Shown here piece by piece: positions 1,262 through 36,059 of a DNA stretch of 64,000 nt. Under the pieces are notes generated by a model. It worked only from the letters and a program-made list of their open reading frames with translations, was not told the origin of the DNA and searched no databases. This DNA is from Candidatus Nanoarchaeia archaeon (GTDB lineage: Archaea; Nanobdellota; Nanobdellia; Woesearchaeales; ARS49): contig JBGPOY010000004.1 of assembly GCA_041488275.1 (NCBI GenBank), forward strand, positions 795 to 64,794. The letters run 5' to 3'. Within the stretch, counting starts at the first letter, position 1, and the number at the start of each line of letters is the position of its first letter. The position numbers were made by a program, and so were the translations under genes.

Positions 1262-2374
1262 ATGCGCATAACTAATCCGGGACTGCTCGTGCAGTTCGAC
1301 GCGTTCATCGATGCTATCACGCCCGAAGATAAGGTCGGGCTGTTCTACGACGATGACCCTGACGGCGTTTGCTCCGGTTCTCTGGTCGTCACCGCCCTTG
1401 AGCGCTTTCGCAACAACAAAATCACGCTCGCTCTTTCCTCGGACCGCGGCAAGTACGGCATGACGGAAGAGCACGTCAAGAAATTCAAGAAAGCGGGCAT
1501 CACCAAAGTCATCACGTGCGACAACGCCATCGAAGAACACACCGAACCCGTCGAAGCCATCGCCAAATTCGCGGACGTGCTCGAGATTGACAACCACGCC
1601 ATCTGCGGTTCCTTCAAGTCTCCCCGTATTCTCATGATGAAGCCTCAATTGTACGTCGAGGATATCGACTACAGCAAGTACTGCACGAGCAAGCTTGTCT
1701 ATGACCTGTTCTCCCGCCACGGCGACCTGCGCGACCGCGACTGGGTCGCCGTCACCGGCTGCATCACCGACATCTCGACCGAGCCGTGGATGGCGTGGAT
1801 TAAGACCGTCGCGAAAAAGTACCGCATCAAATTGCAGAAGGACAAGTTCAAGACAGAATTCGGCAGGGTCGGCATTTACATCAACGACGCAATCTCCTAC
1901 AATCCCAAGAACGTGGCCGAAGCGCTGCGGGAAACGCTCGCCGCGCGCAACCCGAAAGAACTCCTCAACTCCTCACTCAAAAAGTATCACGCAGAGGTCG
2001 AAGCCGAACTCAGGAAATGGATTGACGCGCTCAAGACGAGAGGCGAATGGTATCCTGACTTGAGTCTCGTGTTTTACCAAGTCGCGCCGAAATTCAGAAT
2101 CAAGAGTGCGCTGAGCACGATTCTCGGGCTCAACTACCCTCACCTCACGCTCGTGATTGCCTCGCCGGAAGGCACGAACATGACGCTTTCCGCCCGACGA
2201 GGCGACAAAACTATCGCCGTTAACCGCTTGTTCCAGCTCGCGCTTGAAGGACTGCCTGGAGCTGCCGGCGGGGGTCACATTCCCGCAGCAGGCGGCGCGT
2301 GCAAGGTCAAGGACTTCCCGAAGTTCAAGAACCGCGTCATCGAGCTGCTGAAGTCGGGATTTACGGGACTTTGA
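1262..2374 (+). CDS. DHH-DHHA1 family phosphoesterase (RecJ/NrnA-like)
   Basis: DHH motif FYDDDPDGVCSG near the N-terminus and DHHA1 motif GGGHIPAAGG near the C-terminus. Start moved to ATG 1262 (MRITNPG...); the upstream ORF extension looks like non-coding junk. Confidence 0.8.
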   Translation: MRITNPGLLVQFDAFIDAITPEDKVGLFYDDDPDGVCSGSLVVTALERFRNNKITLALSSDRGKYGMTEEHVKKFKKAGITKVITCDNAIEEHTEPVEAIAKFADVLEIDNHAICGSFKSPRILMMKPQLYVEDIDYSKYCTSKLVYDLFSRHGDLRDRDWVAVTGCITDISTEPWMAWIKTVAKKYRIKLQKDKFKTEFGRVGIYINDAISYNPKNVAEALRETLAARNPKELLNSSLKKYHAEVEAELRKWIDALKTRGEWYPDLSLVFYQVAPKFRIKSALSTILGLNYPHLTLVIASPEGTNMTLSARRGDKTIAVNRLFQLALEGLPGAAGGGHIPAAGGACKVKDFPKFKNRVIELLKSGFTGL

Positions 2375-2439
2375 AGAGCAGTCTTGTAACACAAAGTCTT
2401 AAAAACACCGTTGACTTCTGTCGAAGAATAGGTGATTGT

Positions 2440-3930
2440 GTGCAATTCAAAAAAAGTCAGAGTGCATTCATTCTCGCGCTCTTGATTCTGTCCGTATCTG
2501 TTGTTGCACAAATGTCGCCGACAACCGGTCCCGACTGCACTTCAGCAACTGCTGCAGGTAACGTTGAGATTTGTAATGGCATCGATGATAATTGTAACGG
2601 CGCAATCGATGAGCGTCTTGGAAATACGGAGTGCGGAACAGGACCGTGCGCTACGTCAGTGCCTGCGTGTGTGAAAGGCATCCCCCAATCGTGTACACCG
2701 AAGCCCGCGCCAAGCTCCTATGAGATTTGCGGAAACGGCATTGATGACAATTGTAATGGACAAGTCGATGAGAACTGTCAGCCTGCCTGCACCTCAAATT
2801 GGGTATGGTCGGCGTGGAGCGCATGCTCTTCAGGTGTACAAACAAGAACCACCTCTGATGCAAACAATTGCCCGACCTCGATAGGGCGTCCCGCAGATCA
2901 AACACAAACGTGCAATGCTACCTGTACTCCTGTCACGCAAACGTGCAGTGTTGGTGTTGGCGCATGTGCTCGTTCAGGCACGCAAACGCAGTCGTGCGTG
3001 AATGGCGTGCTCGGTGCTTTGAGTGTGTGCTCTGCAACGGCAGGAGCTCCCGCCGCCGAAACCTGTGGTAATCATGTTGATGATAACTGCAATGGGCAGG
3101 TCGACGAGGGCTGCCTGTTCCAGAATGGTCAGCCGTGCCAAGTGTCGTCGCAGTGTTATTCGCAAAACTGTGCGAACGGAATCTGTGCGTCCTATCAGGA
3201 TTGTATCACCTCGTGCACCTCGCTGGCGCAGAATTGTGTCAGCTACAGTTGCGGATGGTTTGGATGGTCGACCTGCCAGCAGTGCACCCCGTACCAAAAC
3301 CTCAATACGGCATGTGCACAAGGGTGCAATCAACCGTGTACTCCGGTGTCGCAGCCGTGTAGCGTGGGTGTTGGCGCATGTGCCCGTTCAGGTACGCAAA
3401 CGCAATCGTGCGTGAATGGCGTCCTTGGTGCCCCCGGTGCGTGTTCTGCAACTCCCGGTACTCCTATTGCTGAAATATGCGGCAACGCGATTGACGATAA
3501 CTGCGACGGCCAAATCGACGAAGGTTGCTCAACGCCACCCTGCACACAGGGAACGACCACGTGCGGTCTCGGCGCATGCCAAAATACGATTCAGAATTGC
3601 ATCAACGGCGTTCCGCAAACCTGCACTCCCGGTCCGACGTACCCGAGCCCCGAGATTTGCAGCAACGGGATCGATGAAAATTGTAACGGCCAAATCGATG
3701 AAGGTTGCCTGTTCCAGAATGGCCATTCTTGTCAAGTGTCGTCGCAGTGTTATTCGCAAAACTGTGCGAACGGCATTTGCGGCTCCTATCAGGAGTGCAT
3801 CAACTCATGCACCTCGCTGGCGCAGAATTGTGTCAGCTACAGTTGCGGGTGGTTTGGATGGTCAACCTGCCAGCAGTGCAACTCGTACCCGTCTCTGAAT
3901 CAAGCGTGCGCGCTCTCCTGCAATCCTTGA
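2440..3930 (+). CDS. Secreted Cys-rich repeat protein with five MopE-type metal-binding motifs (C-N-G-x-D-D-N-C-N-G-x-x-D-E) and a TSP1-like WSxWS motif
   Basis: GTG start at 2440 is preceded by GGTGA and a TATA at ~2397. Signal peptide VQFKKSQSAFILALLILSVSVVAQ. Five copies of EICGNGIDDNCNGQVDE-like motifs. WVWSAWSACSSGVQTR motif. Extreme Cys content. Confidence 0.7.
   Translation: MQFKKSQSAFILALLILSVSVVAQMSPTTGPDCTSATAAGNVEICNGIDDNCNGAIDERLGNTECGTGPCATSVPACVKGIPQSCTPKPAPSSYEICGNGIDDNCNGQVDENCQPACTSNWVWSAWSACSSGVQTRTTSDANNCPTSIGRPADQTQTCNATCTPVTQTCSVGVGACARSGTQTQSCVNGVLGALSVCSATAGAPAAETCGNHVDDNCNGQVDEGCLFQNGQPCQVSSQCYSQNCANGICASYQDCITSCTSLAQNCVSYSCGWFGWSTCQQCTPYQNLNTACAQGCNQPCTPVSQPCSVGVGACARSGTQTQSCVNGVLGAPGACSATPGTPIAEICGNAIDDNCDGQIDEGCSTPPCTQGTTTCGLGACQNTIQNCINGVPQTCTPGPTYPSPEICSNGIDENCNGQIDEGCLFQNGHSCQVSSQCYSQNCANGICGSYQECINSCTSLAQNCVSYSCGWFGWSTCQQCNSYPSLNQACALSCNP
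2923..3927 (+). repeat. Imperfect intragenic tandem duplication: unit A (CTPVTQTCSVGVGACARSGTQTQSCVNGVLGA), a MopE motif, and unit B (GCLFQNG..CQVSSQCYSQNCANGIC..CGWFGWSTCQQC)
   Basis: Copies begin at 2923 and 3337 (unit A) and at 3112 and 3706 (unit B). DNA identity between copies is near-perfect (e.g. tgcctgttccagaatgg...gtgtcgtcgcagtgttattcgcaaaactgtgcgaacgg). The second copy carries an extra ~180-bp insert. Confidence 0.75.
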
Positions 3931-3970
3931 ACTCTCTAGTCTACCCGCTATATTCTTTTAAAATTGGTTC

Positions 3971-5491
3971 GTGCTTTCTCGTCGTATGAGAGAGTTGGTG
4001 GATGCCGAAACGTGGCAGCTGGTGCAGGACCGATTAGCCGCGGCGCTCGGGCTTCCGGTCGTCACGGTAGACTTGTCCGGCCACATCGAGTTCCGTTCCG
4101 GAACGTTCCCGTTTTTCTGCGAGATTGTGATGAAGCGCGGCGGACAGTTTTGCACGCTCTGCCGGCAGGACTGGGCGGCAAATGCCTCAGGCGTGTATCA
4201 GGATTCTTGCCATGCAGGGCTGTACTCCATCACCGTTCCTGTCTTGATTGACGACAAAAAAGTGGGCGCCTTGATGGTCGAAGGCATCCGCGCAGACCAG
4301 CGCCTCCAAGAAGCCGCGGTCAAAGCCGCCTCGCTCATCGGCGTCGGCTCGGAAGAGCTCGTGGACGAAATCCCGAACGTGCCGATGCAGACTCCTGCGC
4401 AGCTTGCGACCATTCGCCAGCTGCTCGAGACGTTCGCGTCAACCTTGCCGCGCATCGCGTCCGACCGCAGCAAAGACAAGCGCGAAGCGCGTCAGCTGAC
4501 AGTCTTGCTGGACTTTCTCAACCAGCTCGGCGCGACGTTTGATCTTCCGAAAATCCTGAGCACGACGCTCAACTTTTGCATGAAGACATTCACGCTCGAG
4601 GACTGCAGCGTGCGGTACGGCGACGAAACTGCTCGCTTCGCGTACTTGGAAAAGCGCGATGACGCGTGCAAACCGTTAGAAGAAGCGCTCTGGGCGCACT
4701 TACAGAACAGCAAGATGGCGCTGTTTCTCGCGGACGTGCGGGATGACTTCCTGCTGGGACAGGTGGCGGGCATCGCGAACAGCGTACTTGCCGTCCCGAT
4801 TTTGTGGCAGGGCGTGTGCAAGGGCATGCTCGTGCTGTACGGCAAAGTCGGCGAAGAACTGAGAGCGTACGAGGACGTCGTTCGCGCGCTCGCGCAGCGC
4901 ATCGAAGCCGCGCTTGCCGCCGCGCGCAAGTACAAGGAAGCGCAGGAAACAGCCGTCACGGACAAGCTGACCGGATTGTACAACAAGCACTACTTTACCG
5001 AGACGTTCAAGAACGAAGTCGTGCGCGCCTCCAAATTCAAGCGTCCGACGTCGCTTATCATTTTTGACGTGGACAACTTCAAGAGCTACAACGACACGTA
5101 CGGGCATCCGGAAGGCGACAAACTGCTTTCCGAACTCGGACGCGTGCTGCGCGAGACCGTCGGCCAGATTGACACGTCCTGCCGTTACGGCGGAGAGGAG
5201 TTTGTCGTTATTCTGCCGGAAACCAAGCCCGAGCACGCGATGGCGGTCTCCGAGCGCATTCGTTCCGCAATCGATACAACAAATTTCCCGAACCGCAAGA
5301 CCACCATCAGTTTGGGAGTCATCACATGCATGAATTCGTCGGCATCCGCGGACTTTATGCTGAAGGAAGCCGACCGCGCGCTCTACAAGAGCAAGCACCT
5401 GGGCAAAAACCGTTCCACAGGATTCATCATCGTGGACAAGAACTTGGGAACCATTGATGCAAGCGAAGCGAGCGGACAGAAAGTCGTCTAG
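3971..5491 (+). CDS. Signal-transduction protein: PocR ligand-sensing domain + GAF domain + GGDEF diguanylate-cyclase domain (active-site GGEEF)
   Basis: N-terminal PocR-like region with conserved Cys/Gly spacing (FFCEIVMKRGGQFCTLCRQ...CHAGLYSITVPV). Central GAF-like segment. C-terminal GGDEF domain: LTGLYNKHYF...FDVDNFKSYNDTYGHPEGD...RYGGEEFVVILPET. Confidence 0.8.
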   Translation: MLSRRMRELVDAETWQLVQDRLAAALGLPVVTVDLSGHIEFRSGTFPFFCEIVMKRGGQFCTLCRQDWAANASGVYQDSCHAGLYSITVPVLIDDKKVGALMVEGIRADQRLQEAAVKAASLIGVGSEELVDEIPNVPMQTPAQLATIRQLLETFASTLPRIASDRSKDKREARQLTVLLDFLNQLGATFDLPKILSTTLNFCMKTFTLEDCSVRYGDETARFAYLEKRDDACKPLEEALWAHLQNSKMALFLADVRDDFLLGQVAGIANSVLAVPILWQGVCKGMLVLYGKVGEELRAYEDVVRALAQRIEAALAAARKYKEAQETAVTDKLTGLYNKHYFTETFKNEVVRASKFKRPTSLIIFDVDNFKSYNDTYGHPEGDKLLSELGRVLRETVGQIDTSCRYGGEEFVVILPETKPEHAMAVSERIRSAIDTTNFPNRKTTISLGVITCMNSSASADFMLKEADRALYKSKHLGKNRSTGFIIVDKNLGTIDASEASGQKVV

Positions 5492-6685
5492 TTACTTGCT
5501 CGTCAGAATTTCTACTACGTCGCGGTGTTTCAGGAGCGTGTCGCGCCCGATTTTGCGCTTCGTCTTCACGTCCATCGCGGCGACGAAGTTCTTCGCCAAG
5601 TCCGTGTGAATCTTGTTCGCAAAGTCGAGCGCCGTTGAGCCGGGAGGCAGCAGGAAGCAGTCGGGCAGGACGTTGCCGTCCTTGTCTGCGAGCTTGTTGA
5701 CGCCGCCGGGGAAGATGGCCATGTACTTGAGCAGTTCAAACACGGCGGTGTTGAGGACGGTTTGCGCGCCGGTACCGCCGTACTTGTGCAGGACGGACTT
5801 GCGGATGTATTCGAGCGCGTCCTTTTGCTTCGGGTTGACGTTGCCTTTGATAGTAAAATCCTTGTCGCCGGGCAGATAGTCGATAAGTCCTGCCTTTGCC
5901 GCTGTCCTGAGCGTCAGTTCTGCTTCGGCGCTGATAGGAATAATGGTGAGCTGCGGGAACTCCTTCCGGATGCGCGTAAGGTTTGCTTCCGCGCTCGGCA
6001 GGTCCATTTTGTTTGCCGCGATAATCATCGGTTTGCTGCGCGCGCGCACGGTGACGGCAATCTCTTTCAATTGCTCGTCCGTCCATTCCGCCGGGCGCTC
6101 GAGCGGGAGCTTGAGTTTCTTGAGGATTTCTTCCACGAGTGATTCGGAGATGTTCAGTCCGGAGAGCTGCTTGGCAAGCGCTTTCACGACTTGCCCTTTT
6201 TCCTGTTGGAGTGTGCGCGACGTCTTTTCCCAGCCTTTCTTGATGATGCCGAACACCCACATATCGAGTTCGACTTCGAGGAAACGAATGTCGTTCGCGG
6301 GGTCGTACGTTCCCGGCGTAACGGATTCGCCTTTTTCGTTCGTGGAACCGGCCATGTCGACCACGTGCACGAACGCGTCCGCCTGCCGCAGGCCGTCCAA
6401 GAACGTGAGCCCCATGCCTTTTCCGAGGTGGGCGCCCGGCACGAGTCCGGCGACGTCCATCACTTCAACGGGAACGAAGCGCTGGTGGTTGGCGCACATG
6501 CCGAAACGCGGGTTGCATTGGACGTTGAAGTCCTTGTCCACGCAGTCGATGCGCACGAACGCGAACGCCTTGTTCGGGTCGATGGTAGCGAAAGGATAGT
6601 TCGCGATCAAGACATCAACGAGCGTGATGCTCTTGAAGAACGTGCTCTTGCCGACGTTCGCCTTGCCCACGATGCCGATTAACAT
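5492..6685 (-). CDS. ychF: YchF/OLA1-type Obg-family GTPase/ATPase with C-terminal TGS domain
   Basis: MLIGIVGKANVGKSTFFKSIT (P-loop), ANYPFATIDPN, and a C-terminal TGS-like segment. Start set at ATG 6685, which has a reverse TATA (ttatataa) about 25 bp upstream. Confidence 0.8.
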   Translation of the reverse strand: MLIGIVGKANVGKSTFFKSITLVDVLIANYPFATIDPNKAFAFVRIDCVDKDFNVQCNPRFGMCANHQRFVPVEVMDVAGLVPGAHLGKGMGLTFLDGLRQADAFVHVVDMAGSTNEKGESVTPGTYDPANDIRFLEVELDMWVFGIIKKGWEKTSRTLQQEKGQVVKALAKQLSGLNISESLVEEILKKLKLPLERPAEWTDEQLKEIAVTVRARSKPMIIAANKMDLPSAEANLTRIRKEFPQLTIIPISAEAELTLRTAAKAGLIDYLPGDKDFTIKGNVNPKQKDALEYIRKSVLHKYGGTGAQTVLNTAVFELLKYMAIFPGGVNKLADKDGNVLPDCFLLPPGSTALDFANKIHTDLAKNFVAAMDVKTKRKIGRDTLLKHRDVVEILTSK

Positions 6686-6912: not shown

Positions 6913-7512
6913 ATGGCCGAACAAGAGGTGACGTACGGCGGCAAGGAGGCCGACGTCAAGTTTACGGTCGTCTACAAGGACGTGTATTCGTGGGGTTACT
7001 TCTACAAGCTCTTGCACGAGTGGCTGCTGGACAACAAGTACTGCGGCGCCGATGAGGACTTCAAGGAAATCCTGTACGAACAGCTCGAAAAACCGTTCGG
7101 CACCGAAATCTGGCTGCGCTGGCGGCTCGTGAAGAAAGGCGAAGCAGTGGGACCGTATCATGAATTGTTCCAGTACTCCGTTGACGTCGACTTTCACATT
7201 CTCGGACAGAAAGAAGTCGAGGTCGTGACCGGCGGCAAGAAGTACAAGGCGGACAAAGGCGAAGTCGAAGTCGGCGTGGCAGCCCGAGTCGACATCGACC
7301 CGGAAAAGAAAATCAAGAATCACTGGCTCGGCCAGCACTTCGAGGACTTCATCTTCCGAACGTTCCTGAAACGCAAGGTCAAGCAGCACAAGAAACTCAT
7401 CACGTATGATATGCAGCGCTTTCAGGAAGCCATCAAGACGTATCTGAAACTGGAAACGTTCCTCCCCGAGCGCGAGCTCGCGGAATACTACCAGAAGCGG
7501 GACCAGAGCTAA
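6913..7512 (+). CDS. Uncharacterised protein, paralog 1 of a tandem triplet (199 aa)
   Basis: Shares the N-terminal motif Y.G.FS..GL..L.EWLLD..Y, a beta-rich core (EVEVVTGGKKYKADKGEVEV) and a C-terminal helix (F..F+.FL...V) with the two downstream ORFs. Confidence 0.6.
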   Translation: MAEQEVTYGGKEADVKFTVVYKDVYSWGYFYKLLHEWLLDNKYCGADEDFKEILYEQLEKPFGTEIWLRWRLVKKGEAVGPYHELFQYSVDVDFHILGQKEVEVVTGGKKYKADKGEVEVGVAARVDIDPEKKIKNHWLGQHFEDFIFRTFLKRKVKQHKKLITYDMQRFQEAIKTYLKLETFLPERELAEYYQKRDQS

Positions 7513-7513
7513 A

Positions 7514-8026
7514 ATGGGCGACGAAAAGACCGCGGTCGTTCCGCCAGCCGTCACGCGGTATTACGGTCCGTTCAGCTTCCGTGGATTGCTCACCGCCGTC
7601 CGCGACGGGATGAAGCGCGAAGGGTACGATGAAGTCGACGAAAACAGCTACAAGCACAAGGTCGGAGGCGAAGGCACGGACGTCGAAGTCAAGCTGGAAT
7701 CCGACCGCAAACAGAATGATTACGTTAAGTTTAAAATGAACGTTGAGATCAAGATCAGCGAAATGAAGGACGTGGAAGTCGTGCACGAGGGCGAAAAGAT
7801 GAAGATGCAGCACGGCCGCGTGCAGGCGACCGTCACCGAAACCATCGAGCTTGACTACCAGAAAGGGTTTGAGTCCAGCCCGTTCCTGCTCGGATTGCGC
7901 AAGTTTTATCACGACTTCCTCATCAAGACCAAGATTGAGGAAGACTACTGGTACGCCTCGCACCAACGCGTGCAGCGGCTCTCCCAATTGATTCGCCAGA
8001 CGCTGGGGTTCGAAATCCATGGCTGA
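7514..8026 (+). CDS. Uncharacterised protein, paralog 2 of the tandem triplet (170 aa)
   Basis: Starts 2 nt after the paralog-1 stop. Same motif layout (YYGPFSFRGLLTAV..GY; DVEVKLESDRK..; FLLGLRKFYHDFL). Confidence 0.6.
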   Translation: MGDEKTAVVPPAVTRYYGPFSFRGLLTAVRDGMKREGYDEVDENSYKHKVGGEGTDVEVKLESDRKQNDYVKFKMNVEIKISEMKDVEVVHEGEKMKMQHGRVQATVTETIELDYQKGFESSPFLLGLRKFYHDFLIKTKIEEDYWYASHQRVQRLSQLIRQTLGFEIHG

Positions 8027-8528
8027 ACAGGAAATCATCGTGGACAAGGAACGCATCGAGTACGAAGGCATCTTTTCTGTCGCGGGACTCTACCGTTTGA
8101 TTGACGAATGGCTGCTCGACAAGGGTTATTACCGAAAGGAACCGCAGCACATCGAGAGCGCAAAGCCCGAAGGCAAGTTCGTGGAAATGTCGCTGGAACC
8201 GTCCAAGACGCTCACGGACTACGCGCTCAGCATGCTCAAGCTGCGCATCCAGCTCAGCAACATCCGCGACGTGAGCGTCGAAACCGGCGACGGCACGAAG
8301 CAGCGCCTGAACCAAGGCAAGGTCCTCATCACGCTGAGCGGCATCCTCGTCACCGATTACGAAGGCAAGTGGGAAGGCAAGCCGCTGTTCCTCTTCATCC
8401 GCACCATCTACGACAAATTCTTGTACAAGCCCATGACCGGTGGATTTCAGGACACGGTTAGGAGAGATGCCGACCAGCTGAAGAACGTCATTTCCGGTTT
8501 CTTGAACCTGCACCGCTACACGACATAA
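8019..8528 (+). CDS. Uncharacterised protein, paralog 3 of the tandem triplet (169 aa)
   Basis: Overlaps paralog 2 by 8 nt. YEGIFSVAGLYRLIDEWLLDKGYY matches paralog 1 closely. Confidence 0.6.
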   Translation: MAEQEIIVDKERIEYEGIFSVAGLYRLIDEWLLDKGYYRKEPQHIESAKPEGKFVEMSLEPSKTLTDYALSMLKLRIQLSNIRDVSVETGDGTKQRLNQGKVLITLSGILVTDYEGKWEGKPLFLFIRTIYDKFLYKPMTGGFQDTVRRDADQLKNVISGFLNLHRYTT

Positions 8529-21783: not shown

Positions 21784-21832
21784 CACCGAGGCTGCTCGGT
21801 GAAGTTTCGTGCTTCACGAAACCTTTATAAAG
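21784..21832 (+). promoter_or_regulatory. Promoter region of the deoxyhypusine synthase gene: palindrome CACCGAGgctgCTCGGTG (21784-21801), inverted repeat aagtttcgtg/cacgaaac (21801-21822), TATA tttataaa (21825-21832)
   Basis: Read directly from the sequence. TATA is 22 bp upstream of ATG 21854. Confidence 0.55.
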
Positions 21833-21853
21833 CTCCCGACGGGAAAAGGAGCT

Positions 21854-22864
21854 ATGGGGATTAGCAAGGACAAGCTCAGCAAGGCAAAGGAATCCATCTT
21901 CAAGCAGTCGAAAGAGCCCTCGCACGAGACGTTCATTCAGGGCTACGACTTTTCCAAGAAGTTCGACCTCCAGAAGTTCGTCGCCGCGTACGGCACGACC
22001 GGATTTCAGGCAACGAACTTCGCGCGTGCGGTCGGCATCATCAAAAAGATGAAGCTCGCGCGCGAAAAAGAAGGCTGCCGCGTGTTCCTCGGCTACACGT
22101 CGAATATGGTGACTTCCGGCGTGCGCGAATCCATTCTCCACTTGGTCAAGAATAATCTCGTGGACGTGCTCGTCACGACTGCCGGCGGCGTCGAGGAAGA
22201 CATCATCAAGTGTCTCAAGCCGTTTGTTCTCGGCGACTTCCGCGCGAAAGGAGCGGCGTTGCGCGAACAGGGCATTAATCGCACAGGCAACATCTTTGTG
22301 CCCAACGACCGCTATTGCGATTTCGAAGATTTCCTGACGCCCATTTTGAAAGAAGTTGTTGCGGAACAGAAAAAGTCCGGACACATCATCGCGCCCAGCG
22401 AACTCATCCGGATTTTGGGCGAGCGCATCAACAACGAGGAAAGCATCTATTACTGGGCCGCGAAGCACAAAATTCCCGTGTTCTGCCCCGCGATTACCGA
22501 CGGCAGCATCGGCGACATCCTGTTCTTCTTCAAGTACAACCATCCCGAGATTAAGGTCGATATCGCTGAGGACACGTTCCGTTTGAACAACCTCGCGATT
22601 GACGCAAAGCAGACGGGCATGATTGTGCTCGGTGCCGGACTCGTGAAGCACCAGATTTGCAACGCCAACATGTTCCGCGAAGGCGCGAAATACGCAGTCT
22701 ACATCAACACCGCGATGGAATACGACGGTTCCGATTCGGGAGCAGAACCCGAAGAAGCCATCTCGTGGGGCAAAATCGCAGCCACAGCCGAACACGTCAA
22801 AGTCGTCGGCGACGCCACCATTCTGTTTCCGCTTGTGGTCGCGAGCGCGTACGGCGAGAAATAA
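21854..22864 (+). CDS. dys: Deoxyhypusine synthase
   Basis: Full-length DHS similarity (GYTSNMVTSGVRE, TTAGGVEED, GDATILFPL). Start set at ATG 21854 by promoter spacing. Confidence 0.9.
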   Translation: MGISKDKLSKAKESIFKQSKEPSHETFIQGYDFSKKFDLQKFVAAYGTTGFQATNFARAVGIIKKMKLAREKEGCRVFLGYTSNMVTSGVRESILHLVKNNLVDVLVTTAGGVEEDIIKCLKPFVLGDFRAKGAALREQGINRTGNIFVPNDRYCDFEDFLTPILKEVVAEQKKSGHIIAPSELIRILGERINNEESIYYWAAKHKIPVFCPAITDGSIGDILFFFKYNHPEIKVDIAEDTFRLNNLAIDAKQTGMIVLGAGLVKHQICNANMFREGAKYAVYINTAMEYDGSDSGAEPEEAISWGKIAATAEHVKVVGDATILFPLVVASAYGEK

Positions 22865-23043: not shown

Positions 23044-23838
23044 ATGATCCTCGTCGACGTTCACGCGCACTTGCAGCATGAACAGTTCAAGAAGGACTTC
23101 AAGGAAGTCATCGACCGCGCAAAGGCGGCGGGCGTGAAGGCGATTATTCTCAACGGCGTCAACGAGCCGACAAACCGTGAAGTTCTCGAGCTCGCGAAAC
23201 ACGACCCGATTCTGAAAGTGGCGTTGGGCGCGTACCCGATTGACGCGCTCGGGCTCGACTTGGAAGGCGATTCCGGGCTCACGCGCCCCATCCACAAAAT
23301 TGACCTCGACAAAGAACTCGCGTTTATCGCGTCGCAGAAGGACAAAATCATCGGCATCGGCGAAGTCGGGCTCGACTACAAGTACGTGACCGACCCTGCG
23401 CTCCAGAAAAGGATGCGCGAGAACTTCCAGCGCGTCATCGAGCTCTCCGAAAAAATCAAGAAGCCGATGATTGTGCACACGCGCGGCGCAGAAAAAGATG
23501 TGATAGAAATGCTGGAGTCCAGCAAGGTCAAGAAAGTCGACTTGCACAGCTTCGGCGCGCGCAAGAGCGTCGCGAGAAAGGCCGCAGATCTCGGATTCTA
23601 CACGAGCGTGCCTCCGGTGTGCGTTCGGCTTGACCATTACAAGATGATTGTCGACGTGTTCGGCATCAACCAGCTCCTGACGGAAACGGATAGTCCGTGG
23701 CTTGGTCCTGTCGCCGGCGAGCGTAACGAACCCAAGAACGTCTTGGAAAGCGTGAAGTTCATCGCGAAACAGAAAGCGTTTGAAGTCGAGGAAGTCGCGA
23801 ACAATGTCTGGCTGAACTATCAGCGCCTGTTCGGTTAA
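23044..23838 (+). CDS. tatD: TatD-family metal-dependent hydrolase/DNase
   Basis: LVDVHAHL, GIGEVGLDY, TIM-barrel metal-ligand pattern. TATA about 26 bp upstream (leaderless). Confidence 0.85.
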   Translation: MILVDVHAHLQHEQFKKDFKEVIDRAKAAGVKAIILNGVNEPTNREVLELAKHDPILKVALGAYPIDALGLDLEGDSGLTRPIHKIDLDKELAFIASQKDKIIGIGEVGLDYKYVTDPALQKRMRENFQRVIELSEKIKKPMIVHTRGAEKDVIEMLESSKVKKVDLHSFGARKSVARKAADLGFYTSVPPVCVRLDHYKMIVDVFGINQLLTETDSPWLGPVAGERNEPKNVLESVKFIAKQKAFEVEEVANNVWLNYQRLFG

Positions 23839-24398
23839 ACGTTCGCGGCAATCAGCTTCTTCTTGCCGATGTGATGGTTGACGTATTCGACATAGCCGCG
23901 CACGCCTTTCTTGTTTTTCGTCAGCGCGAGCGAGTTCTGCGTCGGAAGCACGTACCGGTGGCTGCCGTCTTTGGCGCGCCAGATAAGTCTCCCGCCCCAC
24001 GCTTTGTTCGACGACATAACGAAATAGTGCGTGACGAGCTTCCACGTTTGAGGGACGTCGTTCAGAATCGTGTAGTCGTTCTTGCCGAACTCGGTGTAGA
24101 ATGCTTTCTTGCCTGACGGAATGCTTGTGATGAGGTTGACGTACGCGCGGAAGCGTTCAGAACTCAGGAAACGCAAAAATGCGTCCTGTTGCATCCCGAA
24201 CGCGCACGACATCTGCTGCGGAACGTATGTGCGCTTGAACTGCGCCTTCTTGGTCAAGTGCTGCACGCGCGCGAATGCGTCCTTGCGCAGGAAGTCCTGC
24301 ACGAGCAATTGTCCTTCGCGGGCGAACACGGTGCGCATCTGTTCCACGACGCCGAAGTCAAGGTATTGCGGGCGAATCCAGTCCGAGAGCTTATCCAT
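23835..24398 (-). CDS. 2OG-Fe(II) oxygenase-like double-stranded beta-helix protein lacking the HxD...H iron ligands (probably catalytically inactive paralog)
   Basis: Paralogous to the upstream gene (WI.P.Y...L..F core conserved). DYTILNDV replaces DHLLPHDD, and GYVEYV replaces TTYHRV. Confidence 0.55.
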   Translation of the reverse strand: MDKLSDWIRPQYLDFGVVEQMRTVFAREGQLLVQDFLRKDAFARVQHLTKKAQFKRTYVPQQMSCAFGMQQDAFLRFLSSERFRAYVNLITSIPSGKKAFYTEFGKNDYTILNDVPQTWKLVTHYFVMSSNKAWGGRLIWRAKDGSHRYVLPTQNSLALTKNKKGVRGYVEYVNHHIGKKKLIAANV

Positions 24399-24999
24399 GG
24401 ACCCACCCTGCGAGCGTCAATCGTTGTTTGTTCGCCACAACTTCCCGCACTCGGTGATACGTCGTGCCGGGCTTGACTGTGAAAATGACGAAGGAATTCC
24501 ACGCGGGAACGTACGACTTCGCAACGCGGTTGTGTTTGAACAAGTCCAACTGTCCGCCGTTTTTCGCAATCCATTGCTTGGACAAATTTACGACAAACGC
24601 GATTTTCCTTCCTTCAAGCTTATCGTCGTGCGGAAGCAAGTGGTCAGTGTCGTCGTAGATGAAGCCGGAAATGTCAATCTCGTGCGCGAGATTCTCGCCC
24701 GTGACGTACGACAGCCACGTCAGAAATGTGCGTGATTGAAGAAAGTCGCGGAACGCGCGCAGCGTTTTGTTACTGCTTTTCTTGACATCGTGCGTTTGCT
24801 CGAACGAAAACAAGTCCGCTTCCTGCTCGAAAAAGCGTTCCTTGAGCAAGGCAGTGCGAACGCGTGCGAGTTTGTCCGCGCGGAAGAAGTTCGTGAGCTG
24901 CAGGTGCGCGAACGGCGCGTTTGACGCGTAACGTTTCCTGAGCGTCGCGGCAGTTCGTGAGCGCACGTACGCCGGAGCAATCCAGTCGCGGAGGTTCAT
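24391..24999 (-). CDS. 2OG-Fe(II) oxygenase (prolyl-hydroxylase/Tpa1-OGFOD1-like) with intact HxD...H...R motifs
   Basis: IYDDTDHLLPHDDKLEGRKIAFVVNL...GGQLDLF...TTYHRVREV...RLTLAGW. Overlaps the downstream paralog by 8 nt. Confidence 0.6.
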   Translation of the reverse strand: MNLRDWIAPAYVRSRTAATLRKRYASNAPFAHLQLTNFFRADKLARVRTALLKERFFEQEADLFSFEQTHDVKKSSNKTLRAFRDFLQSRTFLTWLSYVTGENLAHEIDISGFIYDDTDHLLPHDDKLEGRKIAFVVNLSKQWIAKNGGQLDLFKHNRVAKSYVPAWNSFVIFTVKPGTTYHRVREVVANKQRLTLAGWVHG

Positions 25000-28690: not shown

Positions 28691-29254
28691 TTACTTCACG
28701 AGAGAAAGAACGGCGTTGAGCGCGCTCGGGAGCTCGTTGATGCCTTCGCTGCCGCTGAAGTGTTCCTTGTTCTTTTCCATGATGACCTTCGCTCCGAAGC
28801 GCTTCTCAAACAATGCAACGTTGCTGAGCGGAACGACGGGGTCGTTGGCGGAGAAGATGGTGATGATGTGGTTCGCGGCGTGCTTGATTTTGTCGTAGTC
28901 CATCGGCGTGTCAACCCAGGGCTTGCCGATGGGCTTCTCTTCAGCGGTTAAACCCTTGAGGGTGAACCATGGCGCGACCAGGACGATACCGCCGATGGGC
29001 GCGCCAATGGTTTGAAGGTAGCGAATAATCGTTTGGCAGCCGATGCTGTGCCCGACCAAAAACGTGTCTTTGTCGGGCTTTTTGACGACGGCTGAGAGCT
29101 TCTTGACCCACGCCTCGATGACCGGAGTGTCCGTGTCGGGCATCGCGGGGTTCTCGACCTTGAAACCGCGCTTCGTGAGTTCCTGATTCAGCCACGGCAG
29201 CCAGCCTTCCTGCGGGTTACCTCCCCAGCCGTGGATGATGAAGCAGCGCTTCAT
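28691..29254 (-). CDS. RBBP9/YdeN-family serine hydrolase (alpha/beta fold)
   Basis: FIIHGWGG...LVGHSIGC nucleophile elbow, ~187 aa. Confidence 0.7.
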   Translation of the reverse strand: MKRCFIIHGWGGNPQEGWLPWLNQELTKRGFKVENPAMPDTDTPVIEAWVKKLSAVVKKPDKDTFLVGHSIGCQTIIRYLQTIGAPIGGIVLVAPWFTLKGLTAEEKPIGKPWVDTPMDYDKIKHAANHIITIFSANDPVVPLSNVALFEKRFGAKVIMEKNKEHFSGSEGINELPSALNAVLSLVK

Positions 29255-32200
29255 ACCTTCAAACTCACCACGTTCGAAACGCCGTGGTCGCCGAGCGAGA
29301 CGCCGTAAAGCGTGGACGCTTCGCCGATGACGTTGTCGTTGTGCGAGATGACGATGTATTGCGCGCGCTCACAGTACTTGCGGATGAGCTTGGCGAGCTT
29401 TTCCGAGTTGTGCTTGTCCAGCGCGGCGTCGACTTCGTCGAGGATGTAGAAGCTTGCGGGAGCGTGTTCCTGGATGGCGAAGATGAACGCGAGCGCCGTC
29501 ATCGTTTTTTCGCCTCCTGAAAGCGAGCGTATGTCGAGGAACTTGTTGCCGACGAGCTTGACCTTCACGTTCAGGCCGCCTTCGAACGGGTTTTCAGGCG
29601 TTTCGAGCTCGAGATCTGCCTCGCCTTTCGTGCTGAGCGCGTTGAAAATGCCTTGGAAGTTTTGTTTTACGACCGCGAGCGTCTGCAGGAAGAGTTCTTT
29701 CTTCTTGCCCTCGATTTCGTTCATGAGCCCGACGACGTCTTCCTTTTCCTTGACCAGGATGTCCTTCTTTTGCTGGAGGTTCTGGAATTCCCTTTCGACG
29801 GTGTCGTAGATTTCGAGCGCGCGCATGTTGACCGAACCGATGTTTTCGCGCATCTTTTCGGCGTCCTTGATTTCCTTGGCAAGCACGTCGTCCGGCTTCG
29901 CCAGGTCGAGCTCGACGCCGGCGTACTGCTCGAATTCCACGACGATGTTCGAACGTTCCGCTTTCAGGCGGGCTTCCTCGATGCTGTGCGTGTTCATCTG
30001 GAGCTCTTCCTTGCGGCTGTTTTCTTCAATCGTGAACGCCTTGTTTTCGAGAACCGTGATTTCGTCGGAAATCTTGTTGCGCTTCGTGAACAGGTCTTTG
30101 AACTTGCTCTGGAATTCGGCCTGCGCCTTTTCCTTCTGCTTGAGCGACTTTTCCTGTTCTTTGATGGCGCCGTCAAGCGTCTTGCTTTCTCCCTTGTGCG
30201 CGTCGGTCTCCTGCGCGATGTCTTGGAGGAGTTTGCGCGTGTTGTCCTGGTCGCGGACAAGAATTTCTGACAGTTGAGCGTCAACGTTCTTCAGGTCCGC
30301 GCCGAGCATGACGATTTGGTCCGAGAGCTTCTTGCGGTGCTCCTCGTACGCGTTCAGTTCAGCAATGATGGTCGGCTTGCGCAACTCTGCAATCTTGTCG
30401 TGCAATTGCTGCTTGCGAATCTTGAGTTGCGCGAGCTCCTGCGTCGCGTCGGAAATCGTGTCGGTGATGCTGTCGAGCTTTTTCGAGGCTTCGTTGAGCT
30501 GTTTCTTGAGCTCTTCCTTGTAGCTCTTGCTCGCCTCAAGGTCAGACGTGTCGAGGTGCAGGGATTTCTCGGTCTTGATGATGTCGCCTTCCGTGTTGGC
30601 CTTGAACTCGCGGAGCTTGTAAATTTTGTCCTCGTTCTCGGTCTTGTCGAGCTGGAGCTTGCTGACGTTCGACTGCAGTTTTCCGACTTCGTTCTGGATG
30701 CTTTCGATGGTGCCCGCGAGTTCCTGTTCCTTGAACGCGCCCTGCTTCTTGGCGTGGTAGCCGCCGATCATCGCTCCGGACACGTCGCACACGTCGCCGT
30801 CGAGCGTGACCATCTTGATGGTGCCGACGCCGATTCTGCGCGCGACCTCGATGCTTTGCACGATGAGCGTGTTGCCAAAGACGTACGCGAACACGTCCTT
30901 GAATTTCGGCTCGAACTTGATGAGGTCGATGGCGAACCCGATGACGCCTTTTTCTTCGGTCAACTTTTTGTTTTCCGACTTGACGGGCGTGCCTCTGATC
31001 TTGTTGAGCGGGAGGAACGTTGCCGTGCCGAACCGGTTTTCCTTGAGGTACTTGATACACCGAGCCGCGACTTTGTCGTCGTCGACCACGACGCTGTTGA
31101 TTCTGTTGGCTGCCGCGACTTCGAGCGCGAAGCTGTAGTCCTTGCTCGTGTTGCCGAGTTCGGAGACGGTGCCGTAAATGTCGCCCAATTGCTGGCGGTT
31201 TTCGAGGACTTTCTTGACTGCGACGTTGCCGGCGACGGCTTCCTGCACGCCCGCGTTGCGGACTTCCAAGCGAGCAAGTTCTTCGGAGAGTTTGAGCAGG
31301 CGCTGCTTGCCGCTCGCGAGTTCGGCGGCCATGCGGCTGTCCGTGTTGAGCAATTGGTTGAGTTCGAGGACGGCTTTCTTGAATTCGTCCTTCTTCTGTT
31401 TCAGCGCCTTGATTTCCTGCGTATGTTCCTTCTCGAGCTCGTGGACTTTCTCGATTTGCTGGTCAATCGTTTGCAGCTGGAATTCGACTTTGTCTTTCTC
31501 GCGGAGGAGGTTTTGCTGTCCTTCGCGCAGCTGTGAAAGTGATTTCTGACGCTCATCGGCCTTCATGTCGAGCGAGCGCATTTCCTCGTCAATCGCGCCG
31601 GATTCCTCGCCGAGCTGGTGCTTTTTCTTGAAGTCCGCGAGCTTTTTCTCGTGGGCGGCGAGCTCCTTCTGGAGCGAGGACTTTCTGCCTTCCAAATCGT
31701 CTTTTTGCTCGCGGGTGAGCTTGACTTTTTGGTCGAGTTCTTCCAAGGACTTCCCGAGCGCTTCCTTGCGCTGGGCCATCCTGCCGAGTTCGGTGTGAAG
31801 CGCTCCGAGTCGGGTTTTTTGCGTGGCGACGTCGATGCGGATGTGCTCGACTTCCTTCTGCATCGTAATCTGTTCTTGTTCTCCTTTCTGCTGGACTTCC
31901 TGGTCAATCTGCTGCATTTCGGTCCTGCGAGACTGGATGCCTTCTCTCGTTGCCTTGATGTGTCCTTGGAGTTTGTCAAACTTGACGCGGTAGCCGCCGA
32001 CCTTTTCCTCGATGTCTTTCACGTCAGCTTCTTTCTTGTCGAGCTGGCGCTTGAGCATCGTCGCCTTGTTCTGGCGCAAACGGTCGTTCAGTTCCTTGAA
32101 CTTCATCGCGTGGTCGCGGTCTTTCTTGAGGTCTTTCAGGTAGGACTCGCGTTCTTTGAGAATGATGCCGACCTGTCCGAGGTTTTCCTCAACTTTGGAA

Positions 32201-34392: not shown

Positions 34393-34467
34393 TAGCGGGG
34401 GAAGGATTTGAACCTTCGACCTACGGGTTATGAGCCCGTCGAACACTCCAAGCTGTTCTACCCCGCT
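34393..34467 (-). tRNA. Initiator tRNA-Met (anticodon CAT)
   Basis: A1:U72 acceptor pair, three G:C pairs closing the anticodon stem (acggg/cccgt), loop ctCATaa, T arm gaagg-ttcaaat-ccttc. Confidence 0.8.
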
Positions 34468-34573
34468 GATGATGCCTAGGAAACCCTTCACGGGTTTTAT
34501 AAATGTTTGGGAGTGGCGGTGTTCAGGGAATCCCTGCAAAACCTTTAAAAGCAGTATGTATTTGCTTCAGCGC

Positions 34574-35872: not shown

Positions 35873-35943
35873 GCCTTCTTTAACTGCAAGTCACTAGGAA
35901 AACCTTTAAAAGACACCCTCAGCAACGAACAGGCAGTACCATT

Positions 35944-36027
35944 GCCACCGTGGCGCAACCTGGTACCGCGGTGGATTGCTAATCCACTTTCCGCAAGGAT
36001 TTCCCGGTTCAAATCCGGGCGGTGGCG
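35944..36027 (+). tRNA. tRNA-Ser (anticodon GCT) with long variable arm
   Basis: Acceptor gccaccg/cggtggc, anticodon stem gtgga/tccac with loop ttGCTaa, variable arm tcc-gcaa-gga, T arm cccgg-ttcaaat-ccggg. TATA about 31 bp upstream. Confidence 0.85.
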
Positions 36028-36059
36028 TCCATTCAGAAGCGCATTGCCCCGCACGGGCT

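What the first reader, a model, noticed from the sequence alone, without database searches (positions are those of the whole stretch)
3971..5491. PocR-GAF-GGDEF diguanylate cyclase candidate in an archaeal genome context
The neighbouring genes are unmistakably archaeal (gatDE, aIF5B, aRF1, orc1, L37ae-rpoP, prefoldin, deoxyhypusine synthase). This ORF nonetheless ends in a complete GGDEF domain with a canonical GGEEF active site, preceded by a GAF domain and a PocR small-molecule-sensing domain. c-di-GMP signalling is generally regarded as a bacterial trait and GGDEF domains are very rare in archaea. PocR is common in archaeal sensors, which argues against simple contamination. The gene shares the local GC content and the leaderless promoter style of its neighbours. 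No EAL, HD-GYP or PilZ partner is visible in this window.
Basis: partly seen in the sequence, partly recalled or inferred. Interest (0 to 1): 0.7.

Follow-up and report, generated by a model that had tools for sequence, protein, structure and literature searches.

The report
Genuine archaeal sensor diguanylate cyclase
A DPANN (Woesearchaeota-type) archaeon carries an intact, sensor-linked enzyme for making the "bacterial" messenger c-di-GMP, and relatives keep the gene at the same chromosomal spot, so it is not contamination as reviews had suspected for archaeal hits.

Summary
The gene most likely starts at ATG 3986, not GTG 3971, and ends at 5491. It encodes a 501-aa soluble PocR-GAF-GGDEF protein with strong HMM scores, an intact GGEEF site and all catalytic residues of PleD. 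Only the RxxD inhibitory site is lost (GQID).

The 64-kb window is archaeal (GatDE, Orc1/Cdc6, aIF5B, aRF1, L37ae, deoxyhypusine synthase). Its GatE is closest to proteins labelled Woesearchaeota.

GC3, tetranucleotide use and the TATA-at-minus-26 promoter pattern match the neighbouring genes. A GGDEF gene sits at the same position in nine other contigs: after a RecJ-like DHH gene and convergent with a YchF-like GTPase. Two of these contigs were chosen blind through GatE alone.

The sensor end varies (PocR-GAF, truncated PocR-GAF, GAF only). All forms share a C-terminal tail motif absent from the bacterial hits.

This is a vertically inherited archaeal diguanylate cyclase family. No EAL, HD-GYP, PilZ or c-di-GMP riboswitch occurs in the window, so turnover and receptors are unknown. 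Enzyme activity is inferred, not shown. It is a new member of a known enzyme kind, and it bears on an open question in the field.

The parts
3986..5491 (+). Gene for a 501-aa PocR-GAF-GGDEF sensor diguanylate cyclase (ATG 3986, stop TAG 5489-5491)
   Evidence: ORF. Homologue N-termini. Exact 501-aa product found on the JGI contig. Coordinates checked.
3956..3963 (+). TATA-box-like TTTTAAAA centred about 26 nt upstream of the ATG, implying a leaderless or near-leaderless archaeal transcript
   Evidence: Sequence. Many other first-in-unit genes of the window have an A/T octamer centred about 24-26 nt before the ATG. This is pattern evidence only; no transcript data.
3992..4447 (+). PocR sensory domain with four cysteines (C45, C56, C59, C75) followed by H76
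   Evidence: Pfam PF10114, 1.4e-20. Cys positions. C56 is at least 90% conserved and the others are present in most PocR-type members. No solved PocR relative by sequence.
4541..4915 (+). GAF domain, followed by a long helix (residues 292-324) that leads into the GGDEF domain
   Evidence: Pfam PF01590, 27.6 bits against cut-off 22.4. AlphaFold model, mean pLDDT 92.4, helices 137-181 and 292-324.
4952..5413 (+). GGDEF catalytic domain
   Evidence: PF00990 2.1e-43 and TIGR00254 2.3e-49. PleD 1w25 1.7e-30 and 3ign 4.2e-31. Foldseek to 3ign: rmsd 1.4 A over 163 columns, TM 0.92.
5189..5203 (+). Active-site (A-site) motif GGEEF
   Evidence: Translation. GGEEF is invariant in alignments of 17 and 61 sequences, and the full RYGGEEF in the 17-sequence one.
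5162..5173 (+). Position of the RxxD inhibitory (I) site, here GQID with the Arg lost
   Evidence: Alignment to PleD R359-D362. Motif table. Deeper family members keep RxxD.
5414..5488 (+). C-terminal tail STGFIIVDKNLGTIDASEASGQKVV carrying the clade-specific motif [VIL][IM][VL]D[KR][NS]L
   Evidence: Found in most of P0001-P0068 and in none of the bacterial hits P0069-P0120. Also present in the blind-sampled orthologues and in most of the hits fetched from the exhaustive search.
1262..2374 (+). Conserved upstream neighbour: a RecJ2/GAN-like DHH-DHHA1 phosphoesterase (370 aa). Link to the cyclase is by synteny and one gene fusion only.
   Evidence: Pfam DHH/DHHA1. Profile against PDB: MjaRecJ2 6tvv 2.5e-13, GAN 5ghr 3.1e-8. 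Adjacent in L001, L004, L088, L092, L093, L095, L096. Fused to PocR-GAF-GGDEF in P0331/L097.
5492..6685 (-). Conserved convergent neighbour: a YchF-related (YGR210-like) GTPase, 397 aa. Its stop codon abuts the cyclase stop codon.
   Evidence: NF007171, 5.2e-163. Same arrangement in nine of the ten contexts examined.
6913..8528 (+). Three small paralogous ORFs of unknown function (199, 170 and 169 aa). They are kept next to the GTPase in most relatives; membership in the system is unproven.
   Evidence: No Pfam hit. Paralogy, BLASTP E 1e-6. Three or four small ORFs without Pfam hits, of similar sizes, at the matching position in L001, L004, L090, L092, L095, L096; their homology to the window ORFs was not tested.

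Best explanation
This is a native chromosomal gene of a Woesearchaeota-type (DPANN) archaeon. It encodes a soluble, cytoplasmic sensor diguanylate cyclase.

Shown: the domain order is PocR, a long helix, GAF, a long helix, GGDEF. Every residue PleD uses for Mg2+, guanine and phosphate binding is present. The gene is one of a diverse archaeal family held at one chromosomal position.

Inferred mechanism: the protein forms a parallel homodimer through the two long helices. A small ligand or a redox/metal state is sensed by the Cys-rich PocR domain, by the GAF domain, or by both. That signal changes the helical linker so that the two GGDEF domains, each holding one GTP, can meet and form c-di-GMP. 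This is how bacterial sensor cyclases such as PadC and DgcR work.

Because the RxxD I-site is GQID, product feedback inhibition at the primary site is probably absent in this sub-clade.

Unknown: what degrades or reads the product. No EAL, HD-GYP, PilZ or riboswitch is nearby. The conserved RecJ-like DHH neighbour is a weak candidate for degradation.
For: - **Domains and scores:**
- **Catalytic residues against PleD:** D327->D, N335->N, D344->D, R366->R, GGEEF, K442->K, R446->K. These positions are invariant across family members of 26-76% identity.
- **Structure:** AlphaFold model with pLDDT 92.4. The GGDEF fold matches 3ign at 1.4 A. The best whole-chain matches are sensor/coiled-coil/GGDEF enzymes, 5llw and 6zxb.
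- **Location in the cell:** the strongest hydrophobic stretch lies inside the GAF sheet, so no membrane segment is predicted.
- **Archaeal host:**. GatE is 74% identical to a protein labelled Woesearchaeota.
- **Native composition and promoter:**
- **Synteny:** ten independent contigs from NCBI, JGI, ENA and Logan, including positions deep inside 969-kb and 462-kb contigs. Two of them were picked through GatE alone (56% and 63% identity) and both carry the gene, with RYGGEEF and the clade tail.
- **One family:** the N-terminal halves of the 500-aa and 441-aa forms are homologous (hhalign 99.5%, E 3.8e-22).
- **Separation from bacteria:** on the GGDEF domain alone, the 68 archaeal-type sequences form one NJ clade apart from 49 bacterial ones. 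No bacterial sequence is close; mean identity is 42-44%.
Against: - No biochemical or expression data exist; activity is inferred from sequence and a monomer model.
- No phosphodiesterase, receptor or riboswitch was found in the 64-kb window or in the flanks examined around relatives (up to 10 kb each side), so a complete signalling circuit is not shown.
- Exact monophyly of the archaeal clade has low bootstrap support, 53 of 200.
- PleD R446 is Lys here.
- All the genomes are metagenome assemblies. Lineage names come from depositor labels, and one is demonstrably wrong ("Binatia" for P0001).
- The sensed signal is unknown.
Confidence: 0.8

Rival explanations
1. Bacterial contamination or chimeric assembly: the GGDEF gene sits only about 4.8 kb from the end of its contig and could have been joined on wrongly.
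For: The gene is near one contig end. Reviews treat archaeal MAG hits as possible contamination (PMC5847659; bioRxiv 10.1101/2021.11.05.467447). One close homologue carries a bacterial label, "Binatia".
Against: The same gene order is seen in ten independent assemblies, including positions about 441-462 kb into a 969-kb contig and 335-357 kb into a 462-kb contig, with archaeal genes on both sides. Composition is indistinguishable from the neighbours. The promoter pattern is archaeal. The contig labelled Binatia has the same archaeal-type neighbourhood.
Confidence: 0.02
2. A recent, functionally unintegrated horizontal import from bacteria into this one lineage.
For: GGDEF domains are overwhelmingly bacterial. 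Bacterial proteins with the same PocR-GAF-GGDEF order exist, for example Pyrinomonadaceae at 37-39% identity. An adjacent gene (2299-3930) is a compositional outlier, so the locus does accept insertions.
Against: Positional orthologues are present in lineages whose GatE is only 56-63% identical. Family divergence goes down to about 26% identity while the catalytic residues stay invariant. There is a clade-specific tail motif. No bacterial sequence exceeds 53% identity in the catalytic domain. Composition is native. An ancient transfer from bacteria into the ancestor of this archaeal group remains likely.
Confidence: 0.04
3. The GGDEF domain is intact in sequence but does not act as a c-di-GMP synthase in vivo. 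It could make another nucleotide product (cGAMP, pppGpG), or act as a GTP-sensing or scaffolding module.
For: No EAL, HD-GYP, PilZ, MshEN or riboswitch was found nearby. c-di-GMP has never been detected in an archaeon (PMC10249747). The I-site is lost. The conserved C-terminal tail has no known counterpart.
Against: The guanine-selecting Asp (PleD D344), which Hypr cGAMP synthases replace by Ser according to established knowledge, is invariant. All metal and phosphate ligands are conserved under long divergence, which is the pattern expected for an active enzyme. Non-catalytic GGDEF domains usually have degenerate motifs.
Confidence: 0.12
4. Extension rather than strict rival: the cyclase works as a pair with the upstream RecJ-like DHH-DHHA1 phosphoesterase. 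The DHH protein would degrade c-di-GMP or pGpG and so replace EAL/HD-GYP.
For: The DHH gene lies upstream of the cyclase in all ten contexts examined: adjacent in most, about 6 kb away in L086, on the opposite strand in L001, and only 5 nt away in L088. One contig encodes a single 871-aa DHH-DHHA1-PocR-GAF-GGDEF fusion. The DHH and GGGH motifs are conserved. From general knowledge, bacterial DHH-DHHA1 enzymes (GdpP, NrnA, CnpB) hydrolyse cyclic and linear dinucleotides.
Against: The closest solved relatives are the archaeal nucleases MjaRecJ2, PfuRecJ and GAN, not NrnA or GdpP. In the window and two close relatives the DHH motif reads DNH. In the window a 1.6-kb gene separates the two, and in L001 the DHH gene is on the other strand. 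The whole region of 25-30 kb is syntenic, so adjacency alone is weak. The fusion is seen on one 13-kb contig only.
Confidence: 0.2

Closest known systems
Bacterial GGDEF diguanylate cyclases PleD (1w25/2v0n) and WspR (3bre)
   Same: Same catalytic domain, 33-37% identity. GGEEF and the Mg2+, guanine and phosphate ligands are the same. The fold superposes.
   Different: There is no receiver domain; the input is PocR plus GAF. The primary I-site RxxD is GQID. There is an extra conserved C-terminal tail. The host is an archaeon.
Bacterial PocR-GAF-GGDEF proteins (e.g. Pyrinomonadaceae P0079, 739 aa; loci L010, L012)
   Same: Same domain order. 39% identity in GAF-GGDEF, and 28% in PocR with the Cys pattern retained.
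   Different: The bacterial proteins are longer, keep RxxD (RGAD), lack the tail motif, and do not group inside the archaeal clade.
Methanocella arvoryzae RCIX2274 (CAJ37382), REC-PAS-PocR-GGDEF-HD-GYP
   Same: It was long cited as the only archaeal GGDEF protein, and it also contains PocR next to GGDEF (PMC5847659; bioRxiv 10.1101/2021.11.05.467447).
   Different: It is a single multi-domain ORF in one methanogen, with its own HD-GYP. The protein here is the product of a family conserved across a lineage and has no HD-GYP.
Sensor/coiled-coil/GGDEF enzymes PadC (5llw) and DgcR (6zxb)
   Same: These are the best whole-chain structural matches. A sensory module is joined to GGDEF by a long helix, which supports the dimer-register activation model.
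   Different: Their sensor types are different (bacteriophytochrome, receiver). Sequence identity is 17-32%. The dimer was not modelled here.
Archaeal c-di-AMP signalling (DacZ in Haloferax)
   Same: This is the one cyclic-dinucleotide second messenger established in archaea (PMC6741144, PMC10249747).
   Different: It uses an unrelated DAC-fold enzyme and a different nucleotide. c-di-GMP itself has not been detected in any archaeon tested.

Membership tests
GGDEF diguanylate cyclase (PF00990 / TIGR00254) | Profile score above the curated threshold | tested here: met
   148.3 bits against 23.8. 167.3 bits against 37.4.
GGDEF diguanylate cyclase (PF00990 / TIGR00254) | A-site motif GG(D/E)EF | tested here: met
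   GGEEF at 5189-5203. Invariant in 17 and 61 aligned sequences.
GGDEF diguanylate cyclase (PF00990 / TIGR00254) | Metal-binding Asp (PleD D327) and Glu (E370) | tested here: met
   D361 and E404 in 501-aa numbering align to PleD D327 and E370.
GGDEF diguanylate cyclase (PF00990 / TIGR00254) | Guanine-recognising Asn and Asp (PleD N335, D344) | tested here: met
   N369 and D378 are invariant.
GGDEF diguanylate cyclase (PF00990 / TIGR00254) | Phosphate-binding Lys and Arg (PleD K442, R446) | tested here: inconclusive
   K442 is conserved (K470). R446 is Lys in the window, while several family members have Arg (GRNR). The change is conservative and its effect is unknown.
GGDEF diguanylate cyclase (PF00990 / TIGR00254) | GGDEF (palm-like) fold | tested here: met
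   AlphaFold pLDDT 92.4. 3ign rmsd 1.4 A over 163 columns, TM 0.92.
GGDEF diguanylate cyclase (PF00990 / TIGR00254) | RxxD allosteric I-site (common, but not required for membership) | tested here: not met
   GQID at 5162-5173. RxxD is retained in deeper family members.
GGDEF diguanylate cyclase (PF00990 / TIGR00254) | Synthesis of c-di-GMP from two GTP | not testable with these tools
   Needs an enzyme assay.
Hypr-GGDEF (cGAMP synthase) subclass | Ser in place of the guanine-selecting Asp (PleD D344) | tested here: not met
   Asp is present and invariant. The defining residue is taken from general knowledge of Hallberg et al. 2016, as cited in PMC10249747.
PocR sensory domain (PF10114) | Profile score above the curated threshold | tested here: met
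   74.2 bits against 23.9, covering profile positions 1-157 of 162.
GAF domain (PF01590) | Profile score above the curated threshold | tested here: met
   27.6 bits against 22.4, which is marginal. GAF_2 and GAF_3 are below their thresholds. The secondary structure of the model is compatible.
Complete c-di-GMP signalling module | A phosphodiesterase (EAL or HD-GYP) in the same genome | tested here: not met
   None among the ORFs of the 64-kb window that were scanned against Pfam (nine already identified or obvious genes were left out), or among the precomputed Pfam annotations of called genes in the flanks of relatives. The rest of the genome could not be read.
Complete c-di-GMP signalling module | A receptor (PilZ, MshEN, riboswitch) | tested here: not met
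   No PilZ or MshEN hit. Rfam found only tRNAs. Genome-wide status cannot be tested here.
Native archaeal (Woesearchaeota-type) gene | Conserved position among archaeal genes in independent genomes, and native composition | tested here: met
   Ten contexts, two of them sampled blind through GatE. GC3 and tetranucleotide use. GatE relatives labelled Woesearchaeota.

The most novel reading that the evidence does not exclude
c-di-GMP signalling is an old, vertically inherited trait of a whole DPANN order. It runs without the canonical bacterial parts (no EAL, HD-GYP or PilZ). Turnover would use a RecJ-like DHH-DHHA1 phosphoesterase, which is fused to the cyclase in one lineage, and the receptors would be unknown ones. 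That would be an independent archaeal c-di-GMP network, and the clade-specific C-terminal tail could be its coupling element.
Probability: 0.25. Interest if true: 0.85.

Novelty: new member of a known kind. Interest (0 to 1): 0.62.

Why it matters
Reviews state that c-di-GMP machinery "appears limited to bacteria". They say the only accepted archaeal GGDEF protein is a single Methanocella ORF. They also say archaeal MAG hits may be contamination and that "future studies will show" whether any is genuine (PMC5847659; bioRxiv 10.1101/2021.11.05.467447; PMC10086821; PMC10249747).

This locus gives a direct answer for one lineage. An intact cyclase is held at one chromosomal position across relatives whose GatE is only 56-63% identical. 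That makes archaeal c-di-GMP experimentally testable: one soluble 501-aa protein can be expressed and assayed.

It also raises the question of what degrades and reads the messenger in small-genome, often symbiotic DPANN cells.

Tried and rejected
It returned only bacterial loci, so it gave no archaeal taxonomy. Lineage was instead inferred from GatE homologue labels.
2. The exact-sequence look-up with the GTG-3971 start found nothing. The ATG-3986 version succeeded.
3. I tested whether the DHH neighbour is an NrnA/GdpP-type dinucleotide phosphodiesterase. A single-sequence PDB search was nearly empty. A profile search pointed to the archaeal RecJ2/GAN nucleases. The idea is kept only as a low-probability extension because of the P0331 fusion.
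4. P0332, a PocR-GAF-GAF-HD-GYP protein that matched the sensor profile strongly, was checked as a possible missing phosphodiesterase. Its contig carries bacterial-type genes (A24_N_bact prepilin peptidase, PdxJ), so it was rejected as the archaeal partner.
5. The first NJ/bootstrap script timed out and was rewritten.
6. The exhaustive profile search was swamped by giant multi-GAF proteins, so its global hit counts say nothing about family size. Only single-stretch hits of 430-530 aa were used.
7. No specific bacterial donor could be identified.
8. Literature searches found no paper describing this family.
Full report
**Observation**

The ORF 3971..5491 (+) exists. Pfam gives three domains: PocR (residues 8-159, E 1.4e-20), GAF (191-315, E 4.7e-6, just above threshold) and GGDEF (328-481, E 2.1e-43). 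NCBIfam TIGR00254 gives 2.3e-49.

Close homologues all begin at the position of an internal ATG. The exact-sequence look-up failed for the 506-aa version. It found the 501-aa version on JGI metagenome 3300052990, contig Ga0534153_0000084, 119,726 bp. The gene is therefore most likely 3986..5491.

A TTTTAAAA box lies at 3956-3963, centred about 26 nt before the ATG. Many other first-in-unit genes in the window have an A/T octamer about 24-26 nt before their ATG. This fits leaderless archaeal transcription.

**Is the enzyme intact?**

The alignment to PleD maps D327, N335, D344, R366, GGEEF and K442 onto identical residues. R446 is Lys. In an alignment of 17 full-length family members with 26-76% identity, RYGGEEF and these ligands are invariant. 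GGEEF and most of the ligands remain invariant in a 61-sequence alignment that includes bacteria.

The guanine-selecting Asp is present, so a Hypr-type cGAMP synthase is not indicated. The primary inhibitory site RxxD reads GQID (5162-5173). Close relatives also lack the Arg, whereas deeper members keep RxxD.

An AlphaFold model built on the 61-sequence alignment has mean pLDDT 92.4. It shows PocR, a helix at 137-181, GAF, a helix at 292-324, and GGDEF. Foldseek superposes the catalytic domain on 3ign at 1.4 A. The best whole-chain matches are sensor/helix/GGDEF enzymes such as PadC, 5llw.

No solved PocR structure was found by sequence. The most hydrophobic 19-residue stretch lies in the GAF sheet, so the protein is predicted to be soluble.

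**Is the context archaeal and the gene native?**

NCBIfam and Pfam identify the following in the window:
- GatE, GatD, CDC48 and an archaeal YchF-related GTPase
- deoxyhypusine synthase, Orc1/Cdc6, aIF5B, aRF1, L37ae and prefoldin

The long ORFs at 29251-32847 and 46960-49488 look like SMC and AlaRS; I left them out of the scans, so those two names are unverified.

The window's GatE has a 100% match on the same 119.7-kb contig. Its nearest labelled relatives are "Candidatus Woesearchaeota archaeon" (74%) and "Nanoarchaeota archaeon" (68%).

The cyclase gene has GC 0.583 and GC3 0.753, against 0.757 +/- 0.042 for 41 window genes. Its tetranucleotide correlation with the window is 0.909, rank 35 of 42 segments. 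Two other genes are clear compositional outliers; the cyclase is not.

**Synteny**

Contexts were fetched for eight proteins: homologues at 76, 75, 73, 39, 31 and 30% identity, the window protein itself, and a fusion protein found in the exhaustive search. They come from NCBI, JGI, ENA and Logan assemblies.

Nearly all show the same order: RecJ-like DHH gene, cyclase, convergent YchF-like GTPase, three small unknown ORFs, then ADK, TruD, a glycosyltransferase and GatE. The 30% homologue (L086) keeps the DHH and PhoU genes 6 kb upstream, but its downstream neighbours differ.

One context lies 441-462 kb into a 969-kb contig. The homologue labelled "Binatia" sits in the same archaeal-type neighbourhood, so that label is a binning error.

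As a blind test I then chose two GatE homologues of only 63% and 56% identity, without reference to GGDEF. Both contigs (97.7 kb and 462.6 kb) carry a GGDEF gene of 328-330 aa at exactly this position. Both proteins have RYGGEEF and the family tail.

In addition, seven pairs of GGDEF and GatE hits share identical "longest contig" lengths. This suggests further co-resident cases, although equal contig length is an inference rather than proof.

**One archaeal family with variable sensors**

Hits P0001-P0068 mostly lack RxxD. Most carry a C-terminal motif [VIL][IM][VL]D[KR][NS]L about 12-25 residues from the end. None of the bacterial hits P0069-P0120 has it, and nearly all of those with an intact GGEEF keep RxxD.

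The 441-aa form occupies the same locus. Its N-terminal half is homologous to the PocR-GAF half of the 500-aa form (hhalign 99.5%, E 3.8e-22). It lacks about 50 residues, including the cysteines. The 328-aa form has no PocR hit and is too short to hold a full PocR-GAF sensor; by size it matches the roughly 325-aa hits.

An NJ tree on 157 columns of the catalytic domain, with the tail excluded, puts all 68 archaeal-type sequences in one clade apart from 49 bacterial sequences and PleD. Exact monophyly recurs in only 53 of 200 bootstraps, and most other replicates differ by one to three taxa. No bacterial sequence stands out as a donor: mean identity is 42-44% and the maximum is 53%.

An exhaustive profile search with the sensor half found about 37 single-stretch, full-length representatives at the 50% clustering level among the best 150 hits. 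Of the 32 hits fetched, 29 carry a GGDEF domain and all 29 have GGEEF; most also have the tail.

Bacterial proteins with the same domain order exist in Pyrinomonadaceae, at 39% identity in GAF-GGDEF and 28% in PocR. An ancient transfer of the whole architecture is therefore plausible. Its direction is unresolved.

**Mechanism**

Shown: the domain order, the intact catalytic site, the loss of the I-site, and the long connecting helices.

Inferred: a parallel dimer, in which a signal sensed by the PocR and/or GAF domains alters the helical linker and lets two GTP-loaded GGDEF domains meet.

PocR domains are associated with sensing small hydrocarbon derivatives such as 1,2-propanediol or methanol (PMC13602510, citing Anantharaman and Aravind 2005). 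The four cysteines plus a histidine (C45, C56, C59, C75-H76) are also present in the bacterial PocR-GGDEF protein. They suggest a bound metal or a redox-sensitive site. This is a hypothesis only.

The conserved tail has no known function.

**Partners**

Pfam scans of the ORFs I called across the window (68 genes chosen by a codon-usage score, plus two compositional outliers) found no EAL, HD-GYP, PilZ or MshEN; seven of the called genes already identified through NCBIfam, and the two presumed SMC and AlaRS ORFs, were left out of these scans. Rfam found only tRNAs. None appears among the precomputed Pfam annotations of the called genes in the flanks of relatives.

The upstream DHH-DHHA1 gene is the most persistent neighbour. 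It is 5 nt from the cyclase in L088. On one 13-kb contig it is fused to the cyclase as an 871-aa DHH-DHHA1-PocR-GAF-GGDEF protein. Its profile, however, matches the archaeal nucleases MjaRecJ2, PfuRecJ and GAN rather than NrnA or GdpP. In the window the DHH motif reads DNH, and a 1.6-kb inserted gene separates the two. I rate a role in degradation at about 0.2.

A PocR-GAF-GAF-HD-GYP protein found by the sensor profile lies in a bacterial-looking context.

**Comparison with the literature**

- Galperin et al. [quoted passage not shown]
- Galperin and Chou 2021 (bioRxiv 10.1101/2021.11.05.467447) say the machinery "appears limited to bacteria", and leave archaeal MAG hits to future studies.
- Romling 2022 (PMC10086821) writes that archaeal GGDEF proteins "need to be confirmed in archaeal contigs".
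- van der Does et al. 2023 (PMC10249747) note that c-di-GMP has not been detected in archaea.

My searches of the held library found no description of this Woesearchaeota family. NCBI's pipeline does already name several members "diguanylate cyclase".

**Verdict**

This is a canonical sensor diguanylate cyclase, so it is a new member of a known kind. It is genuinely archaeal, appears vertically inherited within a DPANN group, and carries lineage-specific features: loss of the I-site in this sub-clade, the C-terminal tail, and a variable sensor end. Enzyme activity, the input signal and everything downstream remain to be shown.

Noticed in passing
window 2299-3930 (+); the JGI gene call is 472 aa: A cysteine-rich repeat protein with five MopE-type putative metal-binding motifs (PF11617, 5.8e-29) and an N-terminal hydrophobic segment. 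It is inserted between the DHH gene and the cyclase. GC3 is 0.529 against 0.757 for the window, and it is absent from this position in all relatives, so it is probably a recent insertion.
   Followed up: partly
window 34430-35872 (+), between tRNA-Met (34393-34467, -) and tRNA-Ser (35943-36031, +): A Cys-rich, probably secreted trypsin-like protease (Trypsin_2, 9.2e-22). It lies in the lowest-GC stretch of the window (GC 0.48, GC3 0.46; tetranucleotide r 0.57) and is bracketed by two tRNA genes. It looks like a foreign island.
   Followed up: partly
window 6913-7512, 7514-8026, 8019-8528 (+): Three tandem paralogous ORFs (24% identity, E 1e-6) with no Pfam hit. They are transcribed divergently from the YchF-like GTPase. 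Three or four small ORFs without Pfam hits, of similar sizes, sit at the matching position in most relatives examined. Function unknown.
   Followed up: partly
L097 7981-10596 (ENA ERZ21828334, contig-100_2346): A single 871-aa ORF fuses the RecJ-like DHH-DHHA1 protein to PocR-GAF-GGDEF in the usual syntenic context. It is either a real Rosetta-stone fusion or a lost stop codon. It was seen on one contig only.
   Followed up: partly
L004 2120-3619 (-) (JGI 3300006865): A second, unrelated-sensor GGDEF protein (499 aa; 35% identity in the catalytic domain only; keeps RxxD; no tail). It is inserted beside a DUF87/HerA-like ATPase gene, near a metallophosphoesterase gene. Some of these archaea therefore have two cyclases.
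   Followed up: partly
L004 16813-17619 (+): A 268-aa protein with Sigma70_r2 and Sigma70_r4 domains on an otherwise Woesearchaeota-type contig, next to a radical-SAM/SPASM gene. A bacterial-type sigma factor in an archaeal contig is odd. It may be a mobile element or a mis-join.
   Followed up: no
window 23835-24999 (-), next to deoxyhypusine synthase (21809-22864) and TatD (23044-23838): Two adjacent Ofd1/Tpa1-like 2OG-Fe(II) oxygenase genes (Ofd1_CTDD, 2OG-FeII_Oxy_4). They are also conserved at this position in L095. These are eukaryote-like translation-factor or ribosome hydroxylase relatives in a DPANN genome.
   Followed up: no
window 42663-43721 (-): A second DHH-family protein (DHHA1, 2.3e-9; 352 aa). 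A 349-aa DHH/DHHA1 protein is likewise present in L092. One of the two DHH proteins is presumably the replicative GAN/Cdc45-like protein, which leaves the other free for a different role.
   Followed up: partly
L086 11577-20188 (GCA_019323195.1): In the most divergent PocR-type relative, the cyclase is convergent with a glycogen-debranching-type GDE_C gene, and a glycogen synthase gene lies nearby, instead of the YchF GTPase. Single case; possible metabolic link not examined.
   Followed up: no
search result, (P0241-P0383): Many giant proteins of 2,000-3,900 aa, with up to 21 GAF-like stretches each, outrank true family members when the sensor profile is searched. Their origin and function were not examined.
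   Followed up: no
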